The notes: generated by a model from the letters alone, not told the origin. A stretch of 64,000 nt of DNA from a bacterium (GCA_021780535.1 JAJXYN010000009.1:303923-367922); one strand, 5' to 3'; positions 8,588 to 34,339 are shown, numbered from the stretch's first letter. Translations and numbers: made by a program.

Positions 8588-8677
8588 GGAGAGGTGGCTG
8601 AGCGGTTGAAAGCACCACACTGCTAACGTGGCAGGGCCTAAAAACCCTCGCAGGTTCAAATCCTGTCCTCTCCGCCA
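8588..8677 (+). tRNA. tRNA-Ser (anticodon GCU)
   Basis: GGAGAGG acceptor stem pairing CCTCTCC, anticodon loop CUGCUAA, long variable arm, T-loop TTCAAAT, 3' GCCA encoded. Confidence 0.85.
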
Positions 8678-9062
8678 TACAGGGCTACCGAGATGCCTAG
8701 TTTTACTATGATGGCATTGATGAAACCCCATTAAATCACCAGAGTTTGGTGATTTTTTGTTTTTTTATTTCTCTAAGATTGGTCAATAAATTTTTGATAA
8801 ATTTCTCAATTTTCGAATATCTTGAAATGCAGACTAGAAATTAACTAAAAACTCCCATTAAAAAATAATTAAACTTGGTTCGAAACCTGTTTGCTCTGTT
8901 GGTAACTAGAGCTTCGCAAGGTTTTTGGTTATGTTAATATACTAATACCAACGCGATATTTGGTCTTATTTGGTAAATTAACAAAAATAAAATAGATACT
9001 TCTCTATAATCGAAAGGTATCTAAATTTATAAAATCTTAATTTTTAATAATAGAGATTAAGA
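8672..9062 (+). repeat. Flank repeat copy A: last 6 nt of tRNA-Ser plus ~385 bp of downstream sequence, repeated at 31021..31412 (and partially at 36283..36410)
   Basis: Direct comparison: ccgccatacagggctaccgagatgcctagttttactatgatggcatt...ttggttcgaaacct...taatagagattaag present in both places with ~90% identity. Confidence 0.8.
8733..8768 (+). terminator. Rho-independent terminator downstream of tRNA-Ser
   Basis: atcacca-gagtt-tggtgat hairpin followed by ttttttgttttttt; same element recurs in the two other flank copies. Confidence 0.6.
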
Positions 9063-9769
9063 ATATATTTAACTAAGAACTGGAGGTAATAAACTCCAGT
9101 TAAAATAAAGATAGAAGCTGTTACATATCTTAATATTTTTTCTACTTTAGATACTATATTTAAAGCTTTACTTAACTTATTAAAACTATAAGCTATTATA
9201 AAAGAAAATAATATTACAGGTAGACCGGTTCCTATCCCAAAGAAAGGAGCTAATAAAAATCCAAAATTAGTTTTAAGTATTAAAGGAATTAATATTCCAA
9301 AAAATAAAGCACCACTATAGGGACAAAAAGCTAAAGAAAATAAAATACCCATAAAAAATGAACCAATATAACCCTTAGTAGATAAATGATTTTTTAGTTG
9401 TTCTATCCTCTTATTTCTTATATTAATGTTTATTTTAATAACACCAAACATTAATAACCCTAATAGTATTAGAACTGGCCCTAAAACTTTATCGCCCCAT
9501 CCTTGAAATAGGCTGGATATTTTGAAAGATGATAAACCAAAATAAATTAGAAGAGCTATTAAAGTATAACTTAAAGATCTTCCTAAAGTATAAAATAAGC
9601 CACTTAAAATAGTTTTCTTTTGAGATTTTAAATCTTTTGAAATATATGCAACTGCAGTTATGTTTGTAGCAAGAGGACAAGGGCTAATTGATACTATAAC
9701 ACCCAAAAGAAAAGCTGTTATCAGTGGAATATTTGATGATTCTATTATTGTATTTATAAAATTTAACAT
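9044..9769 (-). CDS. CcdA/DsbD-family transmembrane thiol-disulfide electron transfer protein
   Basis: VSISPCPLATN first-Cys motif in TM1 as in CcdA (SPCVLP), multiple TM helices. Confidence 0.6.
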   Translation of the reverse strand: MLNFINTIIESSNIPLITAFLLGVIVSISPCPLATNITAVAYISKDLKSQKKTILSGLFYTLGRSLSYTLIALLIYFGLSSFKISSLFQGWGDKVLGPVLILLGLLMFGVIKININIRNKRIEQLKNHLSTKGYIGSFFMGILFSLAFCPYSGALFFGILIPLILKTNFGFLLAPFFGIGTGLPVILFSFIIAYSFNKLSKALNIVSKVEKILRYVTASIFILTGVYYLQFLVKYILNLYY

Positions 9770-9773
9770 ATTT

Positions 9774-10238
9774 CTATAATAAAGACCTTATTCTTGTTTC
9801 TAAATAATCCATAAACTTTTGCTTATCAGTAACAAGCATCCATAATTTACTCTCGTAACTAATATTATCTTTATTATCTTTAATCCCATTTATATATAAA
9901 GAAGATCCACTAGCTTGGAATTTTTCACCCAATGCTTTATTTTCTGGTAAATCTAAATTTATTTCTTTAAATATTATTTTTCCATTATTAAATTCAGTTA
10001 GAAATTTTGTTTCTATGGTTTCTTTTGCATACTTACCTAAATTAATACAAGAGATACATCTTTGTGTGTTATGAAATACAAAAACTTCTATTTTATCAGA
10101 TTGTATATTAGATATATGAACTTCTTGGTTTTTGGCTATATTATTTGAATTATTTCTATCTTTAGAGAAAGTTAATACTGAAATAAATATTGAAACTATA
10201 ATTAAACTAGCAGATAAAATTATTATCTTTTTATTCAT
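9774..10238 (-). CDS. Thioredoxin-like CxxC (CISC) membrane-anchored protein, likely CcdA partner
   Basis: N-terminal TM/signal, single RCISC motif; genomic context between permease and CcdA. Confidence 0.35.
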   Translation of the reverse strand: MNKKIIILSASLIIVSIFISVLTFSKDRNNSNNIAKNQEVHISNIQSDKIEVFVFHNTQRCISCINLGKYAKETIETKFLTEFNNGKIIFKEINLDLPENKALGEKFQASGSSLYINGIKDNKDNISYESKLWMLVTDKQKFMDYLETRIRSLL

Positions 10239-10246
10239 AATTGTTA

Positions 10247-11221
10247 TTATAAGATTATATTAAATAAATATCCTAAAATTATTATAAACAAACTAATTAA
10301 ACCAAAGAATATTAATAACAATTTCATCTTCATAACTTTCTTAAGAAGAATAGCTTCTGGTAACGATAAGCCAACTATAGCCATCATAAAAGCTAATGCT
10401 GTACCAATTGGAACTCCTTTTTGTATTAAAGCTTGAATTATAGGAAGAACCCCAGCTGCATTTGAATACATTGGTACACCTATTAGAACAGCAACGGGAA
10501 CGGCAAATGGATTATCTTTGCTTATATAATGCTCAAAAAATCCAGTAGGAACAAATCCATGTATTGCAGCTCCTATAGAAATACCTATTAAAATATATAA
10601 CAAAACCTTTTTTACAATAGATAGGGATTCTCTCAATATACTTGGTATATTTTTAAAAATAGTTCCTTTTTTTATTATTACTTGAGCTGCATTATTTTCT
10701 CTAATATTTTTTACAAAATCAGTAAGCTCATTTTCTAATTTTAATTTCCCAAGTACAAATCCACCAATAATTCCTAATAATATTGCAGATATTACATAAA
10801 TAGAGGTTATCCTTAATCCAAACATTCCAATGAACATTGCGACTGCGACTTCGTTTACTAGCGGAGATGTAATAAGGAATGAAAAAGTAACACCAAGAGG
10901 AATTCCGCCCTTAACAAACCCTATGAATAAAGGAATGGATGAGCAAGAACAAAACGGAGTTACTGCTCCAAATAGTGAAGCAATAATATATTCTAATCCA
11001 TATAACTTATTTTTAGATAAAAAATTCCTTACTTTTTCTACTGGAAAATAGAAATTAATAATACCCATTATAAAACTAATTATAAATAGAAGTATTATGA
11101 TTTTTATTGAATCATAAATAAAAAAATTTACAGAATTAGCTAGATTAGAATTCTTTATTAAATGAAATAGATTGTATGTTACTAAATCTGAAAAACTTTG
11201 TATTGGTTGAAATATATCCAT
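10247..11221 (-). CDS. ArsP-like permease (DUF318/YraQ family)
   Basis: VTPFCSCSSIP matches the conserved TPFCSCS motif of ArsP organoarsenical efflux permeases; 8+ TM helices. Confidence 0.7.
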   Translation of the reverse strand: MDIFQPIQSFSDLVTYNLFHLIKNSNLANSVNFFIYDSIKIIILLFIISFIMGIINFYFPVEKVRNFLSKNKLYGLEYIIASLFGAVTPFCSCSSIPLFIGFVKGGIPLGVTFSFLITSPLVNEVAVAMFIGMFGLRITSIYVISAILLGIIGGFVLGKLKLENELTDFVKNIRENNAAQVIIKKGTIFKNIPSILRESLSIVKKVLLYILIGISIGAAIHGFVPTGFFEHYISKDNPFAVPVAVLIGVPMYSNAAGVLPIIQALIQKGVPIGTALAFMMAIVGLSLPEAILLKKVMKMKLLLIFFGLISLFIIILGYLFNIIL

Positions 11222-11238
11222 AATATACTAATTATTTA

Positions 11239-11610
11239 TTAAGCAGCACCACCAGTGCCAGAGCATTTTCCTCCACAATCACATTGAGCAGTTTTATTAC
11301 AATCACAATCCTCACCACAATCAGATTTATCATCACAGCCACAACCCTTAAACTCAAAGTTATCTTTTACCGATTTTTCAACCATTTCTTTTAATTCTTC
11401 TTTTGATGGCAATACACCTACTAAAATTGGTTTATTATTTATGGCAAGCACTGGACTACTCATAACACCCATAGCTATTATTTCTGAAATATCTGTAACA
11501 TATTCAACATTTAACTCAAATCCTAATTCTTTTACCACTTCTTGTGTTAATTCATGTAATTTTTTACATTTTGCACAACCTGAACCTAAAACTTTTATTT
11601 TGATTTCCAT
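11239..11610 (-). CDS. Redox-active disulfide protein 2 (thioredoxin-fold, GCxKC) with Cys/Asp-rich C-terminal tail
   Basis: IKIKVLGSGCAKCKKL...VTDISEIIAMGVMSSPVLAINNK matches the small Trx-fold family found beside DUF318 permeases; C-terminal 40 aa carries nine Cys, eight of them in Cys-Asp/Asp-Cys pairs. Confidence 0.8.
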   Translation of the reverse strand: MEIKIKVLGSGCAKCKKLHELTQEVVKELGFELNVEYVTDISEIIAMGVMSSPVLAINNKPILVGVLPSKEELKEMVEKSVKDNFEFKGCGCDDKSDCGEDCDCNKTAQCDCGGKCSGTGGAA

Positions 11611-11617
11611 ATTTATT

Positions 11618-11929
11618 TTATTTAATACTTAAAAAACTATTTAATAATGATGAATACTTTTTAATAATATCTTTATTTAAAGAATAAAAAACTTTTAAAC
11701 CAACTTTATTTGATTTTAATAAATTAAAATATTTCATCACTCTTAAATGATGAGATATAAGGTTTTGGGGAATATCTAAAAACTCTTGTATTTCACATAC
11801 ACATCTTTCTTTGTTTTTAAGAAAGCATACTGTTTTTAATCTATTTTCTTCTGATATTATTTTTAGAAAATCTATCATTTCCGACATCTCTAAACTAATG
11901 TCTTTACAATTGAAACATTCTTTTTGCAT
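11618..11929 (-). CDS. arsR: ArsR/SmtB-family metalloregulator
   Basis: ERCVCEIQEFL (ELCVCD-type metal site) followed by HTH ...QNLISHHLRVMK. Confidence 0.85.
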   Translation of the reverse strand: MQKECFNCKDISLEMSEMIDFLKIISEENRLKTVCFLKNKERCVCEIQEFLDIPQNLISHHLRVMKYFNLLKSNKVGLKVFYSLNKDIIKKYSSLLNSFLSIK

Positions 11930-11943
11930 ATTATTAAGATAAG

Positions 11944-11965
11944 TATATCAATTTATATTGATATA
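11944..11965. promoter_or_regulatory. Putative ArsR operator (8-bp arms inverted repeat tatatcaa-N6-ttgatata) immediately upstream of arsR
   Basis: Perfect inverted repeat; identical element upstream of the second arsR paralog at 39038..39059. Confidence 0.55.
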
Positions 11966-12002
11966 GTATAACTTATTTTATAAATGGTCAAATGTTTATA
12001 AA

Positions 12003-13304
12003 TTAATTTTTAATTAAATTAATTTTCTTGTTTTTCATTATAAATTTATTCTTAAACATACCCATAAACTGTCTTTTTTCTTCTATAGAACCGTGGTTTA
12101 GTATAAACTTGGCATAATCTACTAAGTCTACCTTTCTATCGTTCATACCTCGTTCTACGTTGTTTATTTTAAGTACTTGTTTTTGTAGATGAGCAAATCT
12201 TTCCACTTCTATTCTTAACTTTTCTTTAATGTCTTCTTCTGGAATATCAATATCTTTTAGAAGTTTTATTATTTGCTCTATAAATTGTTCTTCTCTAATA
12301 TATCTATTACTACACTTAAGATCTTTTGTTCTATTACATCCATAGTAAATATATTTATTTACTCCACCATTTTTTAATTTCTTGTGTTTTTCCACCGCAC
12401 ATAAATTAGAGCTGCAATGACCACAAATCATAGAACCTAGAAAAGCAAACTCTTTTTCTCCATATTTGTAACTAGCTTTTCCTAATTTTATTTTTCTTTG
12501 AACGATTTCAAATAATTCTTTTGTAATTATTGGTTGATGATTTCCTTGGCACCAATTACCACTTCCTGCTGGATATTCAAACCATCCATAGTAAAATGGT
12601 CTACCAAGTAATATGTAGATATTTGCTAAAGACAGATTCTTACCACTTTTTGTTGTGAAATTTTGTTTTACAAACCAACTATGCAAAGCCCTACCAGAAT
12701 AGTTTTCATAAGCTACTTTCTCAAACGCTTGTTTGATTATTGGAGCTCTTTCAGGATCTGGAATTACTACTCCTGTTTTATTTTTTCTTTCATCATTAAG
12801 ATAGCCGATAGGAGCAACTCCTATCCAAAATCCTTTTGATGTTTTAATTTTCAAACCTCTTTTTACATTGATACTTTTATTATCATTCTCAAGTTTAGCC
12901 TGACCACCAAGTACTGCTAATAGAAATTTATCATTTGGTGTATTTTTAAAGTTTTGATTATACGTTCTTATTTCTTTAAGATAACTACCGTCTATTAAAT
13001 CTATAATACTTCCTAAATCTCCAGCATTTCTTGAAAGTCTATCAGTATTCCATGTTAGAATACCTTCGAATTTACCTTGTCTTAATTCTTTTATCATTTC
13101 ATTAAATATCGGCCTCTGACTTGAAGCTTTTGCAGAATGAGCCTCTTTTTTTATGCAAACCACATTAAGATTATCTCTTTCTGCTATTAAACTCATTTCA
13201 TTTTCTTGAGCTTCTATTGAAAGAGCCTGTTTTTCATCTTCTTCACTAGATTTTCTAGCATAAAGACAGTATCTAATTTCTGACGAAAACCCTTTGTTTT
13301 CCAT
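12003..13304 (-). CDS. Large serine recombinase (resolvase N-domain + recombinase domain + zinc ribbon)
   Basis: YARKSS (catalytic Ser region), RLSRN, recombinase-domain body and C-terminal CGHCSS...YYGC zinc ribbon. Confidence 0.85.
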   Translation of the reverse strand: MENKGFSSEIRYCLYARKSSEEDEKQALSIEAQENEMSLIAERDNLNVVCIKKEAHSAKASSQRPIFNEMIKELRQGKFEGILTWNTDRLSRNAGDLGSIIDLIDGSYLKEIRTYNQNFKNTPNDKFLLAVLGGQAKLENDNKSINVKRGLKIKTSKGFWIGVAPIGYLNDERKNKTGVVIPDPERAPIIKQAFEKVAYENYSGRALHSWFVKQNFTTKSGKNLSLANIYILLGRPFYYGWFEYPAGSGNWCQGNHQPIITKELFEIVQRKIKLGKASYKYGEKEFAFLGSMICGHCSSNLCAVEKHKKLKNGGVNKYIYYGCNRTKDLKCSNRYIREEQFIEQIIKLLKDIDIPEEDIKEKLRIEVERFAHLQKQVLKINNVERGMNDRKVDLVDYAKFILNHGSIEEKRQFMGMFKNKFIMKNKKINLIKN

Positions 13305-13398
13305 ATATTTATCATTAATTTGTTATCTATACACATTAATGACGCAACCCATCTAGTGCGTCTAGGATGAGCTGTTGGTAAGTAGTTGGTAAATAAAA
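13305..13398. repeat. Conserved right-end sequence of recombinase modules (near-identical to 34199..34291), containing candidate recombination site gttatctatacacattaatgacgcaa with internal inverted repeat gacgca-N10-tgcgtc
   Basis: Only 3 mismatches to the module-B copy across the ~94-bp block, three over ~25 bp near its 3' end, then identity ends abruptly; a variant of the core (tttgttatctatatacattaatgacgcaa) at 30770..30800. Confidence 0.6.
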
Positions 13399-13424
13399 AA
13401 AGATACAATTAATGTACCTTCTTT

Positions 13425-15797
13425 TTATTTATAAAGTTTTACTTTTGGATTATTTCTATACTTATTATAATCAAACCATTTTCTCATTATTATATATTGT
13501 ATTAGTCCAAAAAACATTATTATACCTATCGTTTCAATTGCTTTTATTGGTTCTAATGGTTTTATGTCGAAGAAATGTGATAATGGAGCATTATACATTA
13601 CAAATAATAAAAATATTATAATTATAAATGCAAATAAATATAATGCTTTCTTTTCTTTTTTATCACTTGAGGCGCCATAAGCTTTTGGCGCTAACATAAA
13701 AAACCAATATCCCAAAGCTATAATCACAATAACTACATAACTATTTGAACCATCTAGTTTATAATTAACAGGGCTTAATGCAAATGTAATTATTGATGCA
13801 ATTGCTATTATTACACTGTTTATTGCACAGAATGGTAATATTTTTTTAAAAAATAATTGTTGTGGATTTGCTCCTTCTTTATGTGCTGGAAATAACCCCC
13901 AATAAAGAAATGGGATAAATACAGTACAAACATTTATAATTGTTATATTTCTTGGAGACATTGGGTATGTAAAACCTAAAAGAGATACCCCGACAAACAA
14001 TAAAAACCCTATCATTACTTTATTTAGAAAAATACTTGTAACTAGTTCTATGTTTGTAATAATTGTTTCAGCCATATTAACCCCAATAGGCAATGCGGCA
14101 AAGCTATTGTTCATTAATACTATCTGCGCTATTTGTCTTGTAGCCCCAGCGCCATTAAACATTGCTATACCTAAGTCTGATTTTTTTATAGCTAGGGCGT
14201 CGTTTGCTCCATCTCCAACCATTGCTGTGAATCCTTTTGTTTTTAATATTTCTACTATTTTTTCTTTTTGATCTGGAGTTATTCTTGCAAATATATTACA
14301 GTTTTCTATTTTTTTCTCTAATTTTTCATTACTCCATTTTTTTATTTCCGGCCCAGTTATTATTAATTCTGTATTTTTAATTCCAGCTTCACAAGCTATT
14401 GCTCTTACTGTTTCTGGATTATCACCAGATATTACTCTTATATTAACACCTCTTTTTTGAAAGAAATTTATGATATTTTTTGTCCCGTGTCTTAATGGAT
14501 TATCTAAAACAAACAATCCTAATGGTTCTATTGATTCTTTAGAAAGTTTTTTAGAATGCAAGATTGGCTTTTGTGTTCTTGCTATAAGAACTAAACGCTT
14601 TGCTTTTGGTGTATAAAAATTAATTTTATCTTGAAGCCAATCACGTTTTTCTTTTGTATTTATGTAAGATAATAAAATATCTGGAGCACCAACCACTAAC
14701 GATACATTGCTTTTATTTATTTTTATTGTTGCGTGACCATATTTATATTGTGAAGAAAATGGTAAAAGACTAATTAACTCTGCTGTTACTTTTTTTGTTA
14801 TAACTTTTTTTACTATAGCCCTCATAGTTTCGGTGCCATCTTCTGTTAATCTTACATATTCTTTTATAAGTGTTGATATATAAGATATTTTTTCTTTTCC
14901 GAATACCTCTATCTTTTCTAAGTGTGGTGTATTTTCTGTTAATGTACCTGTTTTATCAACGCAAAGATTTTTTATTCTTCCCAACTTTTCTGTTGCGTTA
15001 ATCTCTTGTAATAATACTTGCTCTTTAAACATTTTAAGTGCTCCATATGCAAAGAATATAGTTATAGAAAGAATAAGGCCTTGTGGTACTAATGTACTTG
15101 TTAGTGTTGCTATATCTTTAACTATAGAAACAAAAAGATCATTTATTGAAAGTCCATATATTACTATATACGCAACTGTTACAAGTAATAAATATGTCAT
15201 GTACTTAATAAAAGTACTAAGAGTTTTTTGTATTGGACTTAAGTTTAAAGAATACTTTTTAATTTCTTCTGTCATTCCTGAGATATAACTTTCTTTTGGT
15301 GTTGCTATAACTTTTATAATACCAAATCCAGCAGTGACTATACTTCCTGCTAATATTTCATTGTTTTTGTGTTTTAATATACTTCTAGATTCTCCGGTGA
15401 TTAAAGCTTCATTGGTTGCTAAACCATAATTTTCTATTAATACACCATCTGCTGGTACTTGATCACCAAGCTTAATTTTTAATTTATCCCCGTTACAAAT
15501 TTTACTTATTGGAATTAAAATTTCATTTCCTTTTTTATCTATTAATGTAGCTTGTGGGGTCATTAGTAATTGTAGTTTTTCAAGTGCTATTTTAGCTCTT
15601 AATTCTTGAAAAATACCTATAACTATATTAAGTATAAAAACTATAGATAAAAACAATGCGTCACGATATTCTTTAAAATAAAACAATAATGAGATTACAA
15701 TAGAGAATAAAAGATTAACCAGAGTAATAAAATTTCTGAATATTACGGGCTTAATATTTTTTATAATCAAATTATATATAGAAGAATCGTTTGACAT
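13425..15797 (-). CDS. Cation-transporting P-type ATPase (P2-type, Ca2+/Mg2+-ATPase-like)
   Basis: TGES, DKTGTLTEN, VGAPD, MVGDGANDALAIKKSDLGIAM; no N-terminal metal-binding domain or CPC. Confidence 0.8.
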   Translation of the reverse strand: MSNDSSIYNLIIKNIKPVIFRNFITLVNLLFSIVISLLFYFKEYRDALFLSIVFILNIVIGIFQELRAKIALEKLQLLMTPQATLIDKKGNEILIPISKICNGDKLKIKLGDQVPADGVLIENYGLATNEALITGESRSILKHKNNEILAGSIVTAGFGIIKVIATPKESYISGMTEEIKKYSLNLSPIQKTLSTFIKYMTYLLLVTVAYIVIYGLSINDLFVSIVKDIATLTSTLVPQGLILSITIFFAYGALKMFKEQVLLQEINATEKLGRIKNLCVDKTGTLTENTPHLEKIEVFGKEKISYISTLIKEYVRLTEDGTETMRAIVKKVITKKVTAELISLLPFSSQYKYGHATIKINKSNVSLVVGAPDILLSYINTKEKRDWLQDKINFYTPKAKRLVLIARTQKPILHSKKLSKESIEPLGLFVLDNPLRHGTKNIINFFQKRGVNIRVISGDNPETVRAIACEAGIKNTELIITGPEIKKWSNEKLEKKIENCNIFARITPDQKEKIVEILKTKGFTAMVGDGANDALAIKKSDLGIAMFNGAGATRQIAQIVLMNNSFAALPIGVNMAETIITNIELVTSIFLNKVMIGFLLFVGVSLLGFTYPMSPRNITIINVCTVFIPFLYWGLFPAHKEGANPQQLFFKKILPFCAINSVIIAIASIITFALSPVNYKLDGSNSYVVIVIIALGYWFFMLAPKAYGASSDKKEKKALYLFAFIIIIFLLFVMYNAPLSHFFDIKPLEPIKAIETIGIIMFFGLIQYIIMRKWFDYNKYRNNPKVKLYK

Positions 15798-15923
15798 TAT
15801 TTATTTAAAACCTTTTATTTTATAGATATATTCTATAAGTAAAAAGACTTACTGTCTATTTGTTATTGGAATATTTTATATCTATGATATTATATAAAAA
15901 TTATTTTAATATATTATTATATT

Positions 15924-27134: not shown

Positions 27135-27338
27135 ATTTCTAAAATTACTTAATTAATTTATAAATTCTGACCTTTGAAGGAGAGATTTTTAACGCTTATA
27201 GGTAGTATACAATAAAAAAATATTTTTGTAAACAAGTGAAAGTGTTTTTTAAAAATATTAACTTATTTAAATTAAAACTTTACATATGTAAACTTTTAGT
27301 ATAAAATACTAGTAGATAACAAAGAAATCACACAAAAT

Positions 27339-27986
27339 ATGACAAAAAATGAGGAATTTTTACTTAAGAAAATAAAGGATAACAAATTAGACGGATTATC
27401 TCTTAGAGAAATATCTGATTTAATACCAAATAGTGCTGGAAATGCAGGAACAGCACAATATTATTTAGAAAAACTTCAAAAAAATGGTTATATAATTTGG
27501 AATAGAACAAGAAAGAAAATTGTTTTACTTGGTGAAGTTGTTAAACAAAACATAAAATCAAATGTTCTTAGGCTCCCTTTTTATGGATATGCTAATTGTG
27601 GAGAAGCTTTATCTTTTGCAGATAATACCATTGAAAGATTTATAGAAGTATCATCTCCAATTTTAAAAAACAAAACTCAAGATGATCTTTTTATAGTTCA
27701 AGCAGATGGAGATTCTATGAATTTGCAGGAAATTAATGGTAAAAAAATAGAAAGTGGTGACTTTATTATTATTGATAAAAGTGAAATCAATGATTTGAAA
27801 AATGGTGATTGTGTTCTATCAATAATAAATGGAATGGCTAATATAAAAATATATAATAAAAGTGTTAAAGATGATTATATAAAATTGGAACCAAATTCCT
27901 CAAACAAGAATCATTTTCCGATATTTATTCATGAAGATGGAAATTTCACTATAGCAGGAAAGATTTTAGAAATAATAAAAAAATAA
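27339..27986 (+). CDS. LexA/CI-like repressor (HTH + S24 peptidase domain)
   Basis: N-terminal winged HTH (LSLREISDLIP...YYLEKLQKNGYI); GDSM serine motif and downstream Lys in C-terminal S24 domain. Confidence 0.75.
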   Translation: MTKNEEFLLKKIKDNKLDGLSLREISDLIPNSAGNAGTAQYYLEKLQKNGYIIWNRTRKKIVLLGEVVKQNIKSNVLRLPFYGYANCGEALSFADNTIERFIEVSSPILKNKTQDDLFIVQADGDSMNLQEINGKKIESGDFIIIDKSEINDLKNGDCVLSIINGMANIKIYNKSVKDDYIKLEPNSSNKNHFPIFIHEDGNFTIAGKILEIIKK

Positions 27987-28035
27987 AGGGTTAAAACCCT
28001 TTATTTTTGTTAGAGTTCATTATTAATTCATTAAA

Positions 28036-29217: not shown

Positions 29218-29498
29218 TAGAAGAAGATTATATAACAACGGTTGGAAAAATAATCCCGCCTAAAGGCAAAAATAGAATGCCAATAAGATATTTAGTTTCA
29301 TACCCCAAGGAATTTAATGAAAGATTATATGAGGAATCAATGGAGGCTATTTATAAAATAATTTTTTATTATGATAAAACAAAAACTACCACCAATGAAA
29401 GTTGTGATTCCGCCCCAAGGAAAAAGAAGATTCTCAATAATAATGGAGGCATGCTTTCCAGAAAATCCAGGCCAAAGAGAACAAGAGGAATTATTTAA
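29214..29498 (+). CDS. Small protein carrying repeat unit 1 (IIPPKGKNRMPIRYL...); possibly the 5' part of a frameshifted gene
   Basis: Paralogous ~45-aa unit recurs in the overlapping +1-frame ORF 29371..29595. Confidence 0.35.
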   Translation: MIEEDYITTVGKIIPPKGKNRMPIRYLVSYPKEFNERLYEESMEAIYKIIFYYDKTKTTTNESCDSAPRKKKILNNNGGMLSRKSRPKRTRGII

Positions 29499-29595
29499 AG
29501 CAGTTGATAAAATAATAATCTCTGAAATTATGAAGGATATGAATAAAAATGACCCATATTATAAAGAATATGAAAAAATACTTAACATATTATAA
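29371..29595 (+). CDS. Small protein carrying repeat unit 2 (VIPPQGKRRFSIIME...)
   Basis: See previous; alternative start ATG at 29395. Confidence 0.35.
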   Translation: MIKQKLPPMKVVIPPQGKRRFSIIMEACFPENPGQREQEELFKAVDKIIISEIMKDMNKNDPYYKEYEKILNIL

Positions 29596-29637
29596 GTTAA
29601 GTTGTAGGATAAAAATAAGATTTTTAAAAAAACCAAA

Positions 29638-30102
29638 ATGAATGACGAAAATAAAAGAAAACACTTAGAAATGATACAAAATATAGTTACTAGAATGGGA
29701 AATAATTTATTTTTCCTAAAAGGTTGGTCTATTACAATAATAGCAGCTATATATGCTATTCTTGCAAAAGATATAAGTTTAAAATACATGATTTTCGCAG
29801 CAATTCTTCTTATAATACTATGGATTCTTGACGGTTATTTCTTACATCAAGAAAGATGTTTTAGAGATTTATATGATGCTGTAAGAATTAAAAAAGAAGA
29901 AGATATAGACTATTCTATGAATATAAAAGAATATATAAAAGGAAAAAATACTTGGTTAAAATCAATGTTTTCAAAAACATTAAATATATTTTATGGATCA
30001 ATGTTATTTTTAATAATTATTATGATTGTGTTATCAAATATTAAAATAAATATATCTATTACTTGGAACAATCAAAACAATAATCAAATAATACAAAAAT
30101 AG
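29638..30102 (+). CDS. Small 3-TM membrane protein, translationally coupled to downstream TIR-like gene
   Basis: Predicted TM helices WSITIIAAIYAIL, MIFAAILLIILWIL, SMLFLIIIMIVL; stop at 30102, next start at 30104. Confidence 0.45.
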   Translation: MNDENKRKHLEMIQNIVTRMGNNLFFLKGWSITIIAAIYAILAKDISLKYMIFAAILLIILWILDGYFLHQERCFRDLYDAVRIKKEEDIDYSMNIKEYIKGKNTWLKSMFSKTLNIFYGSMLFLIIIMIVLSNIKINISITWNNQNNNQIIQK

Positions 30103-30103
30103 A

Positions 30104-30763
30104 ATGGGCAGAAAAATATTTGTTAGCTATAAATATGCTGATTCATCTGTTCCGGATTTAAATCTTGGTGAACAGACAACTGTTAGGCATTATGTTGATA
30201 TAATACAAGGACTTTTATCAGAAGAAGATCATATAAACAAGGGTGAAAACGATGGAGAAGATTTAAGTTCTTTTAAAGAAAGTACGATAGAATCAAAATT
30301 AAGAGATAAAATATTTGATAGCACTATAACAATAGTTTTAATATCAAAAAACATGAAAGATCCTAGCAAGAATGAATCAGACCAGTGGATACCTTGGGAG
30401 GTTTCATATTCATTAAAAGAGATTACAAGAGGAGATAAAACAAGTGGCACAAATGCCATGTTAGCAGTTGTTTTACCAGATGAAAAAAATGATTATTCCT
30501 ATTTCGTAAATCACTTTGCTTGTACTACAAGTTGGAATACAGATATACTTTTTAAAATTCTTGGAAATAATATGTTTAATAGGAATAATAAAAATTTAAT
30601 CTCATGCCAAACTTGTGGAGGAACGCATCATATAGACGATGATCACTCATATATTCACCCAGTAAAATGGTGCGATTTCATAAAAGATATAAATAAATAT
30701 ATAGATATAGCTTTAAAAATGAATAATAATCTCAATGAATATAAAATTCAAAAGGAATTATAA
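30104..30763 (+). CDS. TIR-like domain protein (ThsB/DUF1863-like) with Cys/His-rich C-terminus
   Basis: KIFVSYKYADS N-terminal strand motif and SDQWIPWEVSYSL (W-x-x-E) motif as in ThsB (RVFFSFHYQD ... RRWVRYEIMKS); recalled alignment, not computed. Confidence 0.6.
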   Translation: MGRKIFVSYKYADSSVPDLNLGEQTTVRHYVDIIQGLLSEEDHINKGENDGEDLSSFKESTIESKLRDKIFDSTITIVLISKNMKDPSKNESDQWIPWEVSYSLKEITRGDKTSGTNAMLAVVLPDEKNDYSYFVNHFACTTSWNTDILFKILGNNMFNRNNKNLISCQTCGGTHHIDDDHSYIHPVKWCDFIKDINKYIDIALKMNNNLNEYKIQKEL

Positions 30764-30906
30764 TTTTGTTTTTGTTATCTATATACATTAATGACGCAAT
30801 AAAAATCACATATCTAGCAGTTGATAACTTATAATATTTTAGGCTAATATTAGCTATATTATGCTGATATTTATCTATAAAGTCAAGTTAAAAACCTTCT
30901 ATTTTT

Positions 30907-31020
30907 TATGTGTAACATTTGTAACATTTTTTTGCGACCGAGATGCCTCATTTTTCTCCAAAATCCTACCCCCAAAACCCCTTATGGTGCTTGTATGTGT
31001 GGGTACCAGACCGAGGCTTC
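30907..31020 (+). repeat. ~115-bp repeat unit (tgtgtaacatttgtaacattt...gcgACCGAGATGCCtcatttttctcc...cttcccgcc), second copy at 35475..35629
   Basis: ~85% identity between copies; contains a second instance of the accgagatgcc motif also present just downstream of tRNA-Ser. Confidence 0.7.
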
Positions 31021-31412
31021 CCGCCATACAGGGCTACCGAGATGCCTAGTTTTACTATGATGGCATTGAGTTATCCCAGAAAAATCATCAGAAATGGTGA
31101 TTTTTTGTTTTTTTATTTCTCTAAGGTTGGTCAATAAATTTTTTATAAATTTCTCAATTTTCGAATACCTTGAAATGCAGATTATAAATTAATGAAAATC
31201 CCTCATTAATAAACAATTAAATTTGGTTCGAAACCTAGATGCTCTGTTGGTAACTAGAGCTTCGCAAGGTTTTTGGTTATGTTAACATACTAATACCAAC
31301 GCGACATTTCGGTCTTATTTGGTAAATTAACAAAAATAAAAAAAGATACTTCTCTATAATCGAAAGGCGTCTAAATTATAAAATCTTAATTTTTAATAAT
31401 AGAGATTAAGAA
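31021..31412 (+). repeat. Flank repeat copy B (partial tRNA-Ser 3' end ccgcca + downstream flank)
   Basis: See copy A; terminator hairpin variant atcatca-gaaa-tggtgat. Confidence 0.8.
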
Positions 31413-31541
31413 AAATATTTAATAAATTAACTAATAATATATGATTTAAAATCTTCATCATTTCTTCATTTTGATTTGATATGATTTGTAGTTATTGGTT
31501 TATGGAGTTAGAATTATTTAATAAATATATAATTATAATTT

Positions 31542-32882
31542 ATGTCAGATAACATAAAACAAGAAGAAGCTAATCAACAAAATGACAATAAAATATTAAG
31601 TAAAGAAAAGGAAAAAGAACTAGATTTTTTCATTACAACTCCATTAAGATCAGCTAACAATTTAATGAACAAATTATATAGCGATGATAGTTTTTATGAA
31701 ACAACTACTTATGCATTTGTTTCACCAGGAGATGCTAAAAAACTTTTTTTCTATGGAGCGTGTAAGGAGGTATTAAAAACCTGTATATATTTAATGAACA
31801 ATAAAGAATTTCTAGGAGGATCTATAAATGATAAAGATTTTGGTATTGTAGAAAAAGTAATAATGGGGTCAACAATAGATACTCAAACATATCATAGAAG
31901 AAAGATGGTGGAGCTATTAAGTATTGTTATATTATTTGATAGAAACACTAAACATGATGAAGAATACAGAATATATAAATCAGCTGAGAATTTAGATTTA
32001 TTCCTAAGCAGACAATCTGATTTTAAAGAACTTTTTAATGGAAAAATAATATTAAATACTCAACATTCAATAGATGATTTTATAGGAAGGATTGATAGTG
32101 ATAAAAAAGCCATCGAACTTACAGATGTTTGGTTTTTAAATGAAAAAAAACTAAAAAATCAAACTCCAGGTATATTTAAGAGCAAAAAAGGAATATATGA
32201 TTCAGCAATGCTTGTTGCTACTCCTGATGAAAAAATAGCTCTTGGTATATCCTATGGCCGTGGCTATTCTCGTGCTAGTCAATCAATTCATCCAATGTTA
32301 GGAAGTAGTAATTATGGTAAAGAAGATAATGATATCGAACATGTACTTATGAATTCAATTTATATGTCAATTATATGTATGCAAATAATGCATATAGCCT
32401 ATAAGTTAACTGGTTTTGAGGATGAATTTGGATTATCAAAAATCATGGGAACTAATTTTGAAAAATCAGAAGCATCTAAATCAATTGGAGTTTTACAGAA
32501 AGATTTTGATAAAGGAGATCTTATACTTACTTCATGGACAGATATTGCAGAAATAATTGATGAAGAAACAAGTAAATACGGATATAAGGCTTATAAAATA
32601 AAATATCTTTTAACACCACCGCTACCAGAATATCCAGAAGATTGGATAGAAGCACAAAACATATTAGCGCGTATATTATCAAAAAAAACTGTAAGAAAAA
32701 TGTTTAACAATATGGTTATAGAAAAAATGTCTAAAGATGTTATTGAATTATGGCCCGATGTATTAAAACAACCAGATGAAGAACTTATGAAATCAGCAAA
32801 ACATGTGTTTATTGATTTACATAAAGCCAATGTCTTGATACCAATGTTACTAAAAAGTGGTTTCTTAAAGAAAACTAGTTAA
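31542..32882 (+). CDS. Hypothetical 446-aa protein (sole cargo of module B)
   Basis: Intact ORF, host-like composition, no recognisable motif. Confidence 0.45.
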   Translation: MSDNIKQEEANQQNDNKILSKEKEKELDFFITTPLRSANNLMNKLYSDDSFYETTTYAFVSPGDAKKLFFYGACKEVLKTCIYLMNNKEFLGGSINDKDFGIVEKVIMGSTIDTQTYHRRKMVELLSIVILFDRNTKHDEEYRIYKSAENLDLFLSRQSDFKELFNGKIILNTQHSIDDFIGRIDSDKKAIELTDVWFLNEKKLKNQTPGIFKSKKGIYDSAMLVATPDEKIALGISYGRGYSRASQSIHPMLGSSNYGKEDNDIEHVLMNSIYMSIICMQIMHIAYKLTGFEDEFGLSKIMGTNFEKSEASKSIGVLQKDFDKGDLILTSWTDIAEIIDEETSKYGYKAYKIKYLLTPPLPEYPEDWIEAQNILARILSKKTVRKMFNNMVIEKMSKDVIELWPDVLKQPDEELMKSAKHVFIDLHKANVLIPMLLKSGFLKKTS

Positions 32883-32896
32883 TATTAGTAAGAATA

Positions 32897-34198
32897 TTAA
32901 TTTTTTATTAAACTAATCTTCTTATTTTTCATTACAAACTTATTCTTAAACATACCCATAAACTGTCTTTTTTCTTCTATAGAACCGTGATTTAATATAA
33001 ACTTGGCATAATCTACCAAGTCTACTTTTCTATCGTTCATACCTCTTTCTACATTGTTTATTTTTAGTACTTGTTTTTGTAGATGAGCAAATCTTTCTAC
33101 TTCTATTCTTAACTTTTCTTTAATGTCTTCTTCGGGAATATCAATATCTTTTAGAAGCTTTACTATTTGCTCTATAAATTGTTCTTCTCTAATATATCTA
33201 TTACTACATTTAAGATCTTTTGTTCTATTACATCCATAGTAAATATATTTATTTACTCCACCATTTTTTAATTTCTTATGTTTTTCTACTGCACATAAAT
33301 TAGAACTACAATGGCCACAAATCATAGACCCTAAGAATGCAAATTCTTTTTCTCCATATCTATAACTAGCTTTTCCTAATTTTATTTTTCTTTGAACTAT
33401 TTCAAAGAGTTCTTTTGTAATTATTGGTTGATGATTTCCTTGGCACCAATTACCACTTCCTGCTGGATATTCAAACCATCCATAATAAAAAGGCCTTCCA
33501 AGTAGTATATAGATATTTGCTAAGGATAAATTCTTACCACTTTTTGTCGTGAAATTTTGCTTTACAAACCAACTATGTAAAGCTCTACCAGAATAGTTTT
33601 CATAAGCCACCTTCTCAAATGCTTGTTTAATTATTGGGGCTCTTTCAGTATCTGGAATTACTACTCCTGTTTTATTTTTTCTTTCATCATTAAGATATCC
33701 AATAGGCGCAACTCCTATCCAAAATCCTTTTGATGTTTTAATTTTAAGACCTCTTTTTACATTGATACTTTTATTATCATTCTCAAGTTTAGCCTGACCG
33801 CCAAGTACAGCTAATAGAAATTTATCATTCGGAGTATTTTTAAAGTTTTGATTATATGTTCTTATTTCTTTCAGGTAACTACTATCTATCAGGTCTATTA
33901 TACTTCCTAAATCCCCGGCATTTCTTGAAAGTCTATCAGTATTCCATGTTAGAATACCTTCAAATTTTCCTTGTCTTAATTCTTTTATCATTTCATTAAA
34001 TACTGGTCTTTGACTTGAAGCTTTTGCAGAATGGGCTTCTTTTTTTATACAAACTACATTTAAACTATCTCTTTCTGCTATTAAACTCATTTCATTCTCT
34101 TGAGCTTCTATCGAAAGAGCTTGTTTTTCGTCTTCTTCACTAGATTTTCTAGCATAAAGACAATATCTAATTTCTGATGAAAACCCTTTGTTTTCCAT
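32897..34198 (-). CDS. Large serine recombinase (second copy)
   Basis: 8 aa differences from 12003..13304 over 433 aa. Confidence 0.85.
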   Translation of the reverse strand: MENKGFSSEIRYCLYARKSSEEDEKQALSIEAQENEMSLIAERDSLNVVCIKKEAHSAKASSQRPVFNEMIKELRQGKFEGILTWNTDRLSRNAGDLGSIIDLIDSSYLKEIRTYNQNFKNTPNDKFLLAVLGGQAKLENDNKSINVKRGLKIKTSKGFWIGVAPIGYLNDERKNKTGVVIPDTERAPIIKQAFEKVAYENYSGRALHSWFVKQNFTTKSGKNLSLANIYILLGRPFYYGWFEYPAGSGNWCQGNHQPIITKELFEIVQRKIKLGKASYRYGEKEFAFLGSMICGHCSSNLCAVEKHKKLKNGGVNKYIYYGCNRTKDLKCSNRYIREEQFIEQIVKLLKDIDIPEEDIKEKLRIEVERFAHLQKQVLKINNVERGMNDRKVDLVDYAKFILNHGSIEEKRQFMGMFKNKFVMKNKKISLIKN

Positions 34199-34339
34199 AT
34201 ATTTATCATTAATTTGTTATCTATACACATTAATGACGCAACCCATCTAGTGCGTCTAGGATGAGTTGTTGGTAAGTTGTAGGTAAATAAAAAAGAGCCC
34301 TGTTGTCAGGGCTCTACTCAAGAAAGATTGACTTGTGTG

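What the first reader, a model, noticed from the sequence alone, without database searches (positions are those of the whole stretch)
8588..34291. tRNA-Ser(GCU) integration hotspot: two near-identical serine-recombinase modules in direct orientation bracketing ~17.6 kb of prophage-remnant DNA
The only tRNA in the window is followed immediately by module A (8672..13398). Module A is flank repeat, ars-like thiol cargo and a large serine recombinase. A second module B (31021..34291) has the same left end and the same right end but different cargo.
- The shared left end is the last 6 nt of the tRNA (ccgcca) plus ~385 bp.
- The shared right end is a 98%-identical recombinase gene plus ~95 bp, after which identity ends abruptly.
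- Two directly repeated mobile modules flanking a 17.6-kb block of phage-derived genes form a composite, transposon-like architecture.
- The whole block could be excised or amplified by the recombinases or by homologous recombination between the repeats.
- Serine-recombinase elements that carry a long copy of the tRNA downstream flank are not the usual tyrosine-integrase tRNA island.
Basis: seen in the sequence. Interest (0 to 1): 0.8.

Follow-up and report, generated by a model that had tools for sequence, protein, structure and literature searches.

The report
Tandem serine-recombinase islands at tRNA-Ser
Two related mobile islands, each with its own serine recombinase, sit head-to-tail beside a serine tRNA gene in a Patescibacteria (candidate phyla radiation) genome, and the larger one belongs to a widespread family I could not find described: islands that carry a viral DNA-packaging enzyme and an orphan small RNA but no recognisable virus-shell genes.

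Summary
The repeats are real. tRNA-Ser(GCU) lies at 8588-8677. A 405-bp flank copy (F) is repeated at 8672-9076 and 31021-31425 (90.7%). A 1.4-kb recombinase segment is repeated at 12002-13400 and 32896-34294 (93% DNA, 98% protein, dN/dS 0.025).

The "two modules bracketing a prophage remnant" reading does not hold. Relatives with a single recombinase keep the order tRNA-Ser | F | cargo | recombinase | LOOT RNA | TerL-TerS-methylases | 115-nt unit | second F. A sister strain in the same metagenome lacks that whole 14.4-kb segment, with the tRNA joined directly to the second F.

The window therefore holds two elements in tandem:
- E1, 8672-31020, 22.3 kb, which includes the phage-like block.
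- E2, 31021-35624, 4.6 kb, a reduced relative.
- More fragments lie distal to E2.

The inferred mechanism is recombination by the large serine recombinase between unit|F (attP) and tRNA|F (attB) at CCGCCA. The right arms are identical for 49 nt, so the left junction regenerates an attB-like site. New elements would then insert next to the tRNA and push older ones outward, as in SCCmec or tycheposons.

E1's core (LexA-like repressor, ParB-methylase, TerS, TerL, recombinase, LOOT RNA, no recognisable capsid genes) recurs across Patescibacteria. I found no description of it.

The parts
8588..8677 (+). tRNA-Ser(GCU), the integration target. Its last 6 nt, CCGCCA (8672-8677), begin the repeat.
   Evidence: ARAGORN; Rfam tRNA, 55 bits.
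8672..31020 (.). Element E1 (22,349 bp): F1, cargo-1, recombinase A, SUE, cargo-2 with LOOT RNA, terminase/methylase core, LexA-like repressor, defence genes, orphan SUE, unit1.
   Evidence: Repeat spacing 22,349. Same order in the single-recombinase relative L006. The equivalent 14,356-bp segment is absent from L075/L076.
8672..9076 (+). F1, the element-borne copy of the tRNA-downstream flank. The first 49 nt (8672-8720) are identical to F2 and form the putative shared right arm of attB and attP. A tRNA terminator hairpin and further conserved blocks follow.
   Evidence: A window-type F1 follows a different host's tRNA in L077.
9044..11929 (-). Cargo-1 operon: ArsR (11618-11929), thioredoxin (11239-11610), ArsP permease (10247-11221), ArsF-like (9774-10238), DsbD_2 (9044-9769).
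   Evidence: Pfam; NCBIfam ArsF. The same cargo lies beside the recombinase in L083.
12003..13304 (-). Large serine recombinase A (433 aa).
   Evidence: PF00239 + PF07508 + PF13408. Best NCBIfam hit CcrB, 5e-30, below cut-off. Best PDB hit SPbeta SprA/YokA, 8e-12. dN/dS against B = 0.025.
13305..13400 (-). Recombinase-upstream element (SUE_A). It contains the 28-nt motif at 13320-13347 and the inverted repeat TCATTAAT-N15-ATTAATGA at 13312-13342. It is 96.8% identical to SUE_B.
   Evidence: The boxes GTTAYCAAC/CTAG/GGTTGCGTCAT are conserved upstream of the recombinase in L083 and L087, and in part (TGCGTCAT) in L086; L086/L087 recombinases are ~53% identical to this one.
13401..21800 (.). Variable cargo-2 slot: P-type ATPase 13425-15797(-), 246 aa, zinc-ribbon 95 aa, 367 aa, ECF-sigma-like 18152-18670(-), 267 aa, 77 aa, membrane protein 20692-21783(+).
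   Evidence: Pfam. The same slot holds a type I RM + RT in L001, methylases in L006 and L081, and high-GC genes in E2.
20238..20354 (+). LOOT RNA (Rfam RF03000), antisense to TerL and the recombinase.
   Evidence: 67 bits against a gathering score of 46. Present in 7 of 7 related loci scanned.
21817..25634 (-). Conserved core: TerL 21817-23247, TerS 23250-23618, N6/N4 methylase 23615-24388, ParB-methylase 24348-25634.
   Evidence: phrog_38 1.9e-84 and phrog_309 2.2e-13; Pfam. 76-83% DNA identity to L006/L081.
25840..27986 (.). Switch region: leftward small ORFs (186 aa, DUF2188 80 aa, 103 aa) diverging from a rightward LexA-like S24 repressor (27339-27986).
   Evidence: Pfam S24; NCBIfam lexA 2e-17, below cut-off. 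S24 sits in the same place in L081, L085 and L093.
28036..30763 (+). Repressor-side cargo: 393 aa of unknown function, 94 aa, PDC-M50A-like (29638-30102), ThsB TIR (30104-30763).
   Evidence: PADLOC ThsB 4e-80 and PDC-M50A 4e-48.
30771..30835 (-). Orphan second copy of SUE ('preB type'), with no recombinase beside it.
   Evidence: The same orphan copy occurs in L006. L008 has this type directly next to its recombinase.
30902..31025 (+). Unit1, the distal end of E1 and putative P arm. It runs from ATGTGTAACATTTGTAACATTTT through ACCGAGATGCC to ACCGAGGCTTCCCGCC.
   Evidence: It precedes F2 in L006/L071 and L008 as well.
31021..35624 (.). Element E2 (4,604 bp): F2, 446-aa cargo, recombinase B, SUE_B, two high-GC genes, unit2.
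   Evidence: Repeat spacing 4,604. Same build as the small single element in L008. Confirmed by assembly L004.
31021..31425 (+). F2. Together with unit1 it forms an attP-like junction (...GGCTTC|CCGCCA|TACAGGGCTACCGAGATGCC).
31542..32882 (+). E2 cargo ORF, 446 aa, no family match.
   Evidence: No hit in Pfam, PADLOC or NCBIfam.
32897..34198 (-). Large serine recombinase B (433 aa), 425/433 identical to A.
34199..34294 (-). SUE_B.
34340..35307 (-). Two ORFs (174 and 148 aa) at markedly higher G+C than the ~26% of the rest of the window (1-kb bin 34001-35000 = 41.8%), sitting in E2's cargo-2 slot.
   Evidence: Composition. Only 12 homologues; their context is phage-like. Present in three assemblies.
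35468..35629 (+). Unit2, the distal end of E2. It ends in CTTCCCGCC but is not followed by F.
35630..36410 (.). Scrambled distal junction: hairpins and a terminator, a GIY-YIG ORF (35756-35992), a 101-nt copy of the 393-aa gene (36109-36209), and an F fragment lacking its first ~30 nt (36268-36410).

Best explanation
The region is a tandem array of two related integrative islands at the 3' end of tRNA-Ser(GCU) in a Patescibacteria chromosome.

**Build of each island.** Each starts with CCGCCA plus a ~400-bp copy of the tRNA-downstream flank (F). Each carries cargo and a 433-aa large serine recombinase, and ends in a ~115-nt unit that terminates in CTTCCCGCC.
- E1 (8672-31020) is a full-length member of a family built on a LexA-like repressor, ParB-methylase, methylase, TerS, TerL, LOOT RNA and the recombinase. 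Variable defence or resistance cargo sits on both sides, and there are no recognisable capsid, portal or tail genes.
- E2 (31021-35624) is a reduced relative that keeps both ends, the recombinase and cargo.

**Mechanism (inferred).**
- The circular element joins unit to F, which gives attP.
- The recombinase exchanges attP with attB, which is the tRNA 3' end followed by F, somewhere within CCGCCA.
- The right arms of attP and attB are the same sequence. The left junction (tRNA|F1) is therefore again an attB-like site, and the right junction (unit|F2) is attP-like.
- A later element can then integrate next to the tRNA and push earlier ones outward, where they decay.
- The same enzyme could in principle excise E1, E2 or both together.

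**Likely lifestyle (inferred).** The terminase core without recognisable structural genes suggests spread as a phage satellite packaged into a helper phage's capsids.

**Shown:** the anatomy, the boundaries, the presence/absence polymorphism, purifying selection on both recombinases, and family-wide synteny.
**Inferred:** that the recombinase catalyses the event, the crossover position, reversibility, and the satellite lifestyle.
For: 1. **Boundaries.**
- In one metagenome, L072/L071/L006 carry tRNA|F1|cargo|recombinase|...TerL...|unit|F2.
- L075 (and L076) have the 100% identical tRNA and 116 nt upstream joined directly to the F2-type flank and its downstream rve fragment.
- Those two loci therefore lack exactly 14,356 bp.
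- L077 has the same tRNA followed by a third, window-like F1 and a recombinase about 89% identical at the DNA level over the 3' ~345 nt available in that contig.
2. **A single small element.** L008 has tRNA|F1|558-aa cargo|recombinase|unit|partial F2|chromosomal PAP2 gene. L073, a near relative, has no recombinase element there.
3. **Recombinase and terminase block belong together.**
- This holds in L001, L006 and L081.
- It also holds in 6 of 6 sampled loci whose recombinases are 51-54% identical: L083, L086, L087, L088, L093, L094.
4. **Selection.**
- The two recombinases differ by dS 0.43 and dN 0.011, so both are maintained and they are not a recent duplicate.
- The first 49 nt of F are 100% identical between E1 and E2.
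- They are also the best-conserved part of F across lineages.
- L001, with a diverged core (GTCAGGGGCGACCCCGAAGCG), sits at tRNA-Ser(UGA).
5. **Only one recombinase.** The serine recombinase is the only recombinase family detected among the E1/E2 ORFs scanned with Pfam, PHROGs, PADLOC and NCBIfam; a few small ORFs were not scanned. It is an LSR by domain content and is nearest to CcrB, XisF and SprA.
6. **Structural genes.** No structural-protein match in E1 by Pfam or PHROGs. No capsid, portal or tail family is listed among the precomputed Pfam hits within +/-10 kb in the relatives, though many of their ORFs have no hit at all.
Against: - No circular junction or excised form was observed for this genome.
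- Neither the crossover point nor the catalyst has been shown.
- Canonical phage LSRs have attP and attB with little shared sequence and hybrid attL/attR sites that stay inert without a directionality factor. A 49-400-bp shared arm is atypical and would also permit RecA-dependent integration.
- Dyad symmetry around CCGCCA is weak.
- Unit2 is not followed by F, so E2's distal junction is not the predicted attR.
- A duplicated ~75-nt recombinase-upstream element flanks the 17.4-kb cargo-2 and terminase block in E1 and L006. L008 looks like the exact deletion product. That block may therefore come and go on its own.
- No replication module was recognised in E1.
- The satellite idea has no helper phage behind it.
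Confidence: 0.65

Rival explanations
1. Two autonomous 3-5-kb recombinase modules (8672-13398 and 31021-34291) are the mobile units. They bracket an unrelated 17.6-kb prophage remnant, giving a composite-transposon-like structure.
For: Both modules share both ends, and identity stops sharply at 13400/34294. Small recombinase-plus-cargo elements without the terminase block do exist: L008 and E2 itself.
Against: - The 13400/34294 breakpoint recurs in L001, L006 and L072 next to different cargo. It is the edge of a variable slot.
- The small element in L008 does not end there. It continues to a unit|F junction.
- Relatives with one recombinase still have the terminase block between two F copies.
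- The polymorphic unit in L006 versus L075 includes the block.
- TerL and the recombinase are adjacent and co-directional in L083, L087 and L093.
Confidence: 0.08
2. E1 is itself two nested elements. A small recombinase element (F, cargo, recombinase, SUE, unit, as in L008) has received the 17.4-kb cargo-2 and terminase block by recombination at the ~75-nt recombinase-upstream element. The block would then be gained and lost separately, by homologous recombination or by the recombinase acting as a resolvase on directly repeated sites.
For: - Direct SUE copies flank the block in the window and in L006.
- L008 has recombinase + motif + preB-type sequence, the exact recombinant.
- The L081 contig starts and ends in these repeats.
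- SUE lies immediately upstream of the recombinase gene and contains an 8-bp inverted repeat, like a res site.
- It is 96.8% conserved where synonymous sites are 32% different.
Against: - In the wider family TerL is directly followed by SUE and the recombinase, with no second copy detected. Contiguity therefore looks ancestral, and L008 looks like a deletion derivative.
- The block encodes no recognisable recombinase of its own.
- This rival concerns E1's internal history and is compatible with the tandem-array model.
Confidence: 0.2
3. Integration and tandem formation occur by RecA-dependent homologous recombination through the 400-bp F (or the recombinase gene), not by site-specific recombination. 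The recombinase would have another role, such as resolution or excision only.
For: F copies are 80-91% identical over ~400 bp, far longer than any known LSR site. The marker pattern in F1/F2/L075 does not pin the crossover uniquely.
Against: - Homology begins exactly at CCGCC(A) of the tRNA in every lineage, including the tRNA-Ser(UGA) one.
- The first 49 nt are under much stronger constraint than the rest of F, and than synonymous sites.
- The unit's 3' end shares the pattern CC-N4-CT-N2-CCGCC with the tRNA end.
Confidence: 0.12
4. The repeats are an in-situ segmental duplication or an assembly artefact (chimeric or collapsed repeats).
For: The source is a metagenome-derived genome. A stretch of much higher G+C (about 34300-35330) lies beside recombinase B.
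Against: - The copies differ by 7-10% and have different cargo.
- dS is 0.43 under strong purifying selection.
- An independent assembly reproduces 22897-44198 at 99.995%.
- The high-GC protein is seen in three assemblies.
- The same architecture recurs in other samples.
Confidence: 0.03

Closest known systems
SCCmec / Enterococcus cassette chromosome elements (CcrAB/CcrC large serine recombinases)
   Same: - Cargo cassettes integrated by LSRs at the 3' end of one conserved gene.
- Every junction carries a direct repeat of the core, so composite or tandem cassettes with several attR-like sites accumulate (PMC6222049).
- The best NCBIfam hit of this recombinase is CcrB.
   Different: - The target is tRNA-Ser, not rlmH.
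- The shared arm is ~400 bp rather than ~50 bp.
- There is one recombinase rather than a CcrA/B pair. The CcrB score is 105 bits against a cut-off of 900, so it is not a Ccr orthologue.
- The full element has a terminase core and a repressor switch.
- The host is Patescibacteria.
Tycheposons of Prochlorococcus
   Same: - Cargo islands in a streamlined genome that integrate at a tRNA.
- New arrivals push older ones distally, leaving remnants.
- Some are PICI-like and carry terS; a minority use a large serine recombinase (bioRxiv 10.1101/2020.12.28.424599).
   Different: - Tycheposons mostly use tyrosine recombinases and are separated by partial tRNA copies. Here the repeat is the sequence downstream of the tRNA.
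- Tycheposons carry replication modules, and none was recognised here.
- TerL, ParB-methylase and LOOT RNA are not tycheposon hallmarks.
Phage satellites (PICI, cfPICI, PLE)
   Same: - 5-22-kb islands with an integrase, a repressor switch and packaging genes but an incomplete virion gene set.
- They carry defence cargo.
- From my own knowledge, PLEs use a large serine recombinase.
   Different: - No known satellite family combines TerS + TerL + ParB-methylase with no capsid genes.
- No replication module was found and no helper phage is known.
- Induction, packaging and transfer were not tested.
Temperate phages with LSR integrases (SPbeta SprA, phiC31, Bxb1, A118)
   Same: Same enzyme class, and SprA is the nearest solved structure. 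The recombinase gene lies near one end of the inserted DNA.
   Different: From my own knowledge, those phages have short attP and attB sites with minimal shared sequence, inert hybrid junctions and a directionality factor. They usually target protein-coding genes and carry full structural modules.
tRNA/tmRNA genomic islands with tyrosine integrases
   Same: Integration at a tRNA 3' end, an element-borne copy that restores the target, and tandem arrays.
   Different: No tyrosine recombinase is present. The duplicated segment starts at the last 6 nt of the tRNA and extends downstream, rather than covering the tRNA 3' half.

Membership tests
Large serine recombinase (LSR) integrase | N-terminal resolvase catalytic domain with the catalytic serine | tested here: met
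   PF00239 4.7e-21 and 3.5e-21 at residues 14-158. The motif YARKSSEEDEKQ is present in both copies.
Large serine recombinase (LSR) integrase | Recombinase domain plus zinc-ribbon domain C-terminal to the catalytic domain | tested here: met
   PF07508 (6e-14) and PF13408 (1.9e-8) in both copies. Aligns to SPbeta SprA over residues 49-351.
Large serine recombinase (LSR) integrase | Recombines short attP x attB sites at a central dinucleotide | not testable with these tools
   Comparative data only confine the exchange to CCGCCA(G) or its right-hand neighbourhood.
SCC-type cassette chromosome element | Ccr-family recombinase (NCBIfam equivalog) | tested here: not met
   CcrB 104.6 bits against a cut-off of 900.
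SCC-type cassette chromosome element | Integration at the 3' end of rlmH (orfX) | tested here: not met
   The target is the 3' end of tRNA-Ser.
SCC-type cassette chromosome element | Core repeat at every junction, allowing tandem or composite cassettes | tested here: met
   CCGCCA plus 43 identical nt at 8672 and 31021. Unit copies at 30902 and 35468.
Intact temperate prophage | Capsid, portal and tail genes alongside the terminase | tested here: not met
   No structural hit in Pfam or PHROGs for E1 ORFs. No capsid, portal or tail family among the precomputed Pfam hits in L081, L083, L085, L087, L088 and L093, where many ORFs have no hit.
Phage satellite (PICI/PLE-like) | Integrase, repressor switch and packaging-redirection gene(s) in an island lacking a full virion module | tested here: met
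   Recombinase, LexA-like S24 with divergent operons, TerS and TerL.
Phage satellite (PICI/PLE-like) | Own replication module (primase or rep plus ori) | tested here: not met
   No primase, helicase or Rep family hit in E1. Several ORFs remain unknown.
Phage satellite (PICI/PLE-like) | Induction by, and packaging into particles of, a helper phage | not testable with these tools
   No helper phage identified. TerL is at most 27% identical to any INPHARED phage.
Composite transposon | Two terminal copies of an autonomous element whose outer ends mobilise the intervening DNA | tested here: not met
   The recombinase 'modules' are not terminal units. The mobile unit defined by presence/absence runs from F to the unit.
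Tyrosine-integrase tRNA island | Tyrosine recombinase (PF00589) and a duplicated tRNA 3' half | tested here: not met
   No PF00589 hit. The repeat starts at the last 6 nt of the tRNA.

The most novel reading that the evidence does not exclude
Patescibacteria may host a widespread family of capsid-less, terminase-bearing, defence- and resistance-carrying integrative islands that I could not find described. Their hallmark would be LexA-like repressor, ParB-methylase, TerS, TerL, LOOT RNA and a ~440-aa serine recombinase, and they would act as satellites of still-unknown CPR phages. In the tRNA-Ser subfamily, attP would share its entire right arm with attB. Integration would then regenerate the target and be reversible without a directionality factor, which would drive tandem accretion next to the tRNA. 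The orphan Rfam motif LOOT would gain its first biological context.
Probability: 0.4. Interest if true: 0.75.

Novelty: new variant of a known kind. Interest (0 to 1): 0.6.

Why it matters
- CPR/Patescibacteria have tiny genomes. The literature searches run here turned up nothing on how they exchange genes or on any such integrative elements.
- This locus gives a concrete, testable mobile element with defined ends, natural empty and occupied alleles, and an enzyme small enough (433 aa) to interest genome engineers.
- It ties a large set of unexplained "phage terminase" and "recombinase family protein" annotations in CPR genomes to one element type that ferries defence systems and metal or arsenic resistance.
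- It places the orphan LOOT RNA inside that element.
- If attL really equals attB, this would be a serine-recombinase system with built-in target regeneration. That would explain island growth and may allow iterative insertion.

Tried and rejected
- **Unit and F as a known RNA.** An Rfam E-value scan of 30700-31500 found nothing. RNAalifold on nine F copies gave only the terminator and one short hairpin.
- **F as a decayed transposase gene.** The rve ORF in L075 reads out of F. Upstream of it the frame is full of stops, and the rve fragment starts after F. Rejected.
- **A third element with a lost recombinase at 39.1 kb.** The alignment shows only a paralogous ArsR and its operator. Similarity fades before the recombinase 3' end. 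Rejected.
- **A sigma-70 promoter in the conserved recombinase-upstream element.** None was found on the correct strand.
- **Flanking direct repeats in distant relatives** (L083, L085, L087, L088). None was informative.
- **A generic link between CPR LSRs and terminases.** In a more distant LSR clade (31-45% identity), 0 of 62 loci have TerL, TerS or ParB-methylase within 10 kb. The link is specific to the clade whose recombinases are about 50% or more identical to this one.
- **Close phage relatives.** TerL is at most 27% identical to any INPHARED record. IMG/VR holds only the L006 contig.
- **Literature.** Searches for CPR or Patescibacteria with terminase, serine recombinase, prophage or LOOT RNA found no description.
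- **Chance hit.** L074 is a chance match to the search pattern. L078 has an unexplained left context.

Full report
**1. Observation**

The window has one tRNA gene, tRNA-Ser(GCU), at 8588-8677. Self-comparison confirms two long direct repeats.
- 8672-9076 matches 31021-31425 at 90.7%. I call this segment F. It starts at the tRNA's last six bases, CCGCCA.
- 12002-13400 matches 32896-34294 at 93.2%.

The second repeat contains two 433-aa ORFs on the minus strand. Both have Resolvase, Recombinase and zinc-ribbon domains, so they are large serine recombinases.
- They are 425/433 identical as proteins.
- They differ at 92 nucleotides, with dS 0.43, dN 0.011 and dN/dS 0.025.
- They are therefore two long-separated copies that are both under selection, not a fresh duplication.

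Identity ends sharply at 13400/34294.

- A second copy of the 93/115-nt "unit" that precedes F2, at 35468-35629.
- A third copy of a 28-nt motif that lies just upstream of both recombinase genes, at 30772-30799.
- Short copies of E1 sequences at 36109-36209 and 36275-36334.
- A paralogous ArsR and operator at 38708-39114.

An independent assembly (L004) reproduces 22897-44198 at 99.995%.

**2. Gene content**

- Between the tRNA and recombinase A lies an ArsR-thioredoxin-ArsP-ArsF-DsbD operon.
- Beyond recombinase A come a P-type ATPase, a sigma-like gene with a neighbouring 367-aa gene, and LOOT RNA (RF03000, 20238-20354).
- On the minus strand follow TerL, TerS, a methylase and a ParB-methylase. 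TerL matches phrog_38 at 1.9e-84 and TerS matches phrog_309.
- Next come three small ORFs that diverge from a LexA-like S24 repressor.
- After the repressor come an unknown 393-aa gene, a PDC-M50A-like gene and a ThsB TIR gene.
- No capsid, portal or tail gene was recognised.
- Module B carries an unassignable 446-aa ORF.
- Upstream of recombinase B sit two ORFs at much higher G+C than the ~26% of the rest of the window (the 1-kb bin 34001-35000 is 41.8%).

**3. Host and relatives**

The recombinase has only three clusters at 84% identity or more. It has thousands at about 50-56%, and many of those are labelled Patescibacteria. The closest genome hit is a "Patescibacteria group bacterium" (L008). 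Three comparisons decide the structure.

(a) L006 = L003 = IMG/VR contig 3300010346_002174, together with L072 and L071. Only one recombinase is seen here. The order is tRNA-Ser(GCU) | F1 | 399-aa cargo | recombinase | methylases | LOOT | TerL TerS methylase ParB-methylase | ... | motif | unit | F2 | rve fragment. The phage-like block therefore lies between two F copies even without a second recombinase seen on these contigs, and the unit|F junction is conserved.

(b) L075 (same metagenome) and L076.
- Their tRNA and 116 nt upstream are 100% identical to L006.
- In them the tRNA is joined directly to the F2-type flank and the same rve fragment.
- They therefore lack a 14,356-bp segment that runs exactly from F1 to the unit.
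- L077 has the same tRNA followed by a third allele with a window-like F1.
- F1 therefore travels with the element, and the exchange lies at or just right of CCGCCA.

(c) L008 holds one small element: tRNA | F1 | 558-aa cargo | recombinase | motif | ~500 bp | unit | partial F2 | chromosomal gene. Its near relative L073 has no recombinase element there.

In addition, L001 has the same layout at tRNA-Ser(UGA), with a diverged core.

**4. Reinterpretation**

The window holds E1 (8672-31020, 22,349 bp) and E2 (31021-35624, 4,604 bp) in tandem. Each runs from CCGCCA+F to a unit that ends in CTTCCCGCC. E1 includes recombinase A and the terminase block. E2 has the same build as L008.

The breakpoint at 13400/34294 also occurs in L001, L006 and L072, next to unrelated genes in each case. 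It is the edge of a variable cargo slot, not an element end.

Distal to unit2 the array is scrambled: a GIY-YIG ORF, a 101-nt piece of the 393-aa gene, and an F fragment. This fits older, decayed layers.

**5. Mechanism**

Shown:
- The boundaries and the natural occupied and empty alleles.
- The serine recombinase as the only recombinase family detected in the scanned ORFs.
- 100% identity of the first 49 nt of F between E1 and E2, against 32% synonymous difference in the adjacent gene.
- A shared pattern, CC-N4-CT-N2-CCGCC, in the tRNA end and the unit end.

Inferred:
- The circular form joins unit to F, which is attP, and recombines with tRNA|F, which is attB, within CCGCCA.
- P' equals B', so attL is equivalent to attB and attR to attP over any plausible LSR site length.
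- Integration would then not consume the target. That explains tandem accretion with the most intact element next to the tRNA.
- It also predicts excision without a directionality factor.

This works like SCCmec/ECC (PMC6222049) and like the tRNA-proximal accretion described for tycheposons. It is not a member of either group.

A RecA-dependent route through the 400-bp F cannot be excluded.

**6. Family context**

I sampled six loci whose recombinases are 51-54% identical to this one: L083, L086, L087, L088, L093 and L094. In all six the recombinase lies co-directionally downstream of a ParB-methylase/methylase and TerS(-like) core, and five of the six also have a TerL-sized gene between TerS and the recombinase (L086 lacks one). 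A seventh locus, L085, was sampled through TerL and shows the same core.
- A LexA-like repressor is often present.
- Defence genes vary: CBASS and a DGR in L085, OLD in L081, type I RM with an RT in L001.
- ArsR-regulated cargo often lies beyond the recombinase. In L083 it is the same ars-like operon as in the window.
- No capsid, portal or tail family appears among the listed Pfam hits, though many ORFs there have no hit.

LOOT RNA is present in the window and in 7 of 7 related loci scanned.

A more distant LSR clade (31-45% identity) shows no such link, 0 of 62 loci. TerL is at most 27% identical to any deposited phage. I found no paper that describes this element type.

The most likely lifestyle is a satellite-like island whose induced leftward operon ends in the recombinase. 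This is inference.

**7. Unresolved**

The ~75-nt recombinase-upstream element (SUE) has these properties.
- Its boxes GTTAYCAAC / CTAG / GGTTGCGTCAT are conserved upstream of the recombinase in L083 and L087, and in part in L086.
- It contains the inverted repeat TCATTAAT-N15-ATTAATGA at 13312-13342.
- In E1 and L006 it is duplicated on both sides of the cargo-2 and terminase block.
- L008 is the exact recombinant between the two copies.

The block may therefore be gained and lost independently, by homologous recombination or by resolvase-like action.

The 23-mer at the unit's 5' edge is exact in two unrelated IMG/VR phage contigs. The roles of LOOT, of the conserved blocks of F beyond the core, and of the unit's internal ACCGAG repeats are unknown.

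**8. Verdict**

- The modules are wrongly delimited. This is a tandem array rather than a composite around a remnant.
- It is a new variant of known kinds, SCC-like or tycheposon-like accretion with satellite-like content.
- It sits in an understudied phylum and points to a large element family that I could not find described.

Noticed in passing
window 20238-20354; L001 2337-2456; L006 9153-9278; L081 10262-10396; L083 7704-7833; L085 13931-14048; L087 11368-11490; L088 12000-12126: LOOT RNA (Rfam RF03000, an orphan sRNA motif) is present in the window and in all 7 related terminase/recombinase loci scanned. It is usually antisense to TerL and the recombinase. It appears to be a hallmark of this element family.
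   Followed up: partly
window 34300-35330: Two ORFs (174 and 148 aa) at much higher G+C than the ~26% genome (1-kb bin 34001-35000 = 41.8%) sit in E2's cargo slot. Only 12 homologues exist in 5.8 billion proteins, and the homologues examined sit in phage-like contigs (T4 RNA ligase, SIR2). The arrangement is seen in three assemblies, so it is probably a real recent capture of foreign, phage-derived DNA.
   Followed up: partly
window 30908-30930 and 35476-35498; L091 12240-12262; L092 381-403: The 23-mer ATGTGTAACATTTGTAACATTTT at the 5' edge of both units occurs exactly in two unrelated, higher-GC IMG/VR phage contigs, each time after a T- or A-run in an intergenic spot. By rough estimate chance cannot explain this. 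Its function is unknown.
   Followed up: partly
window 13305-13400, 30771-30835, 34199-34294; L008 2531-2600: A ~75-nt conserved recombinase-upstream element with an 8-bp inverted repeat is duplicated around the 17.4-kb block. L008 looks like the precise recombinant lacking the block. The element is 96.8% identical between E1 and E2, although synonymous sites differ by 32%.
   Followed up: partly
window 29638-30763: A strong ThsB (Thoeris TIR, PADLOC 4e-80) lies next to a PDC-M50A-like gene, with no recognisable ThsA. The upstream 393-aa and 94-aa genes have no family match.
   Followed up: no
window 35630-36410: A GIY-YIG ORF (35756-35992), a 101-nt copy (93%) of the middle of the 393-aa gene and an F fragment lacking its first ~30 nt lie just after unit2. 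This looks like a scrambled old junction, possibly disrupted by a homing-endonuclease-type insertion.
   Followed up: partly
window 11612-12023 and 38708-39114: A second ArsR gene, with the same palindromic operator (TATATCAATTTATATTGATATA), heads a TauE-family exporter. It is 86.5% identical to the E1 ArsR region. Alignment shows no recombinase remnant beside it.
   Followed up: yes
L085 14150-16260: A related island carries a diversity-generating retroelement (RT, bAvd and a 125-nt template/variable repeat pair) and a CBASS-like operon behind the S24 repressor.
   Followed up: no
window 8760-9040 and 31110-31390 (F beyond the core): Blocks such as TTTATTTCTCTAA, AAATGCAGATTA and GGTTCGAAACCTGTTTGCTCTGTTGGTAA...CTTCGCAAGGTTTTTGGTTATG are conserved in all F copies, including the tRNA-Ser(UGA) lineage. 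No consensus RNA fold or ORF explains them.
   Followed up: partly
window 63171-63287: Short tandem or direct repeats (about 40-nt period) appeared in the self-comparison near the end of the window.
   Followed up: no
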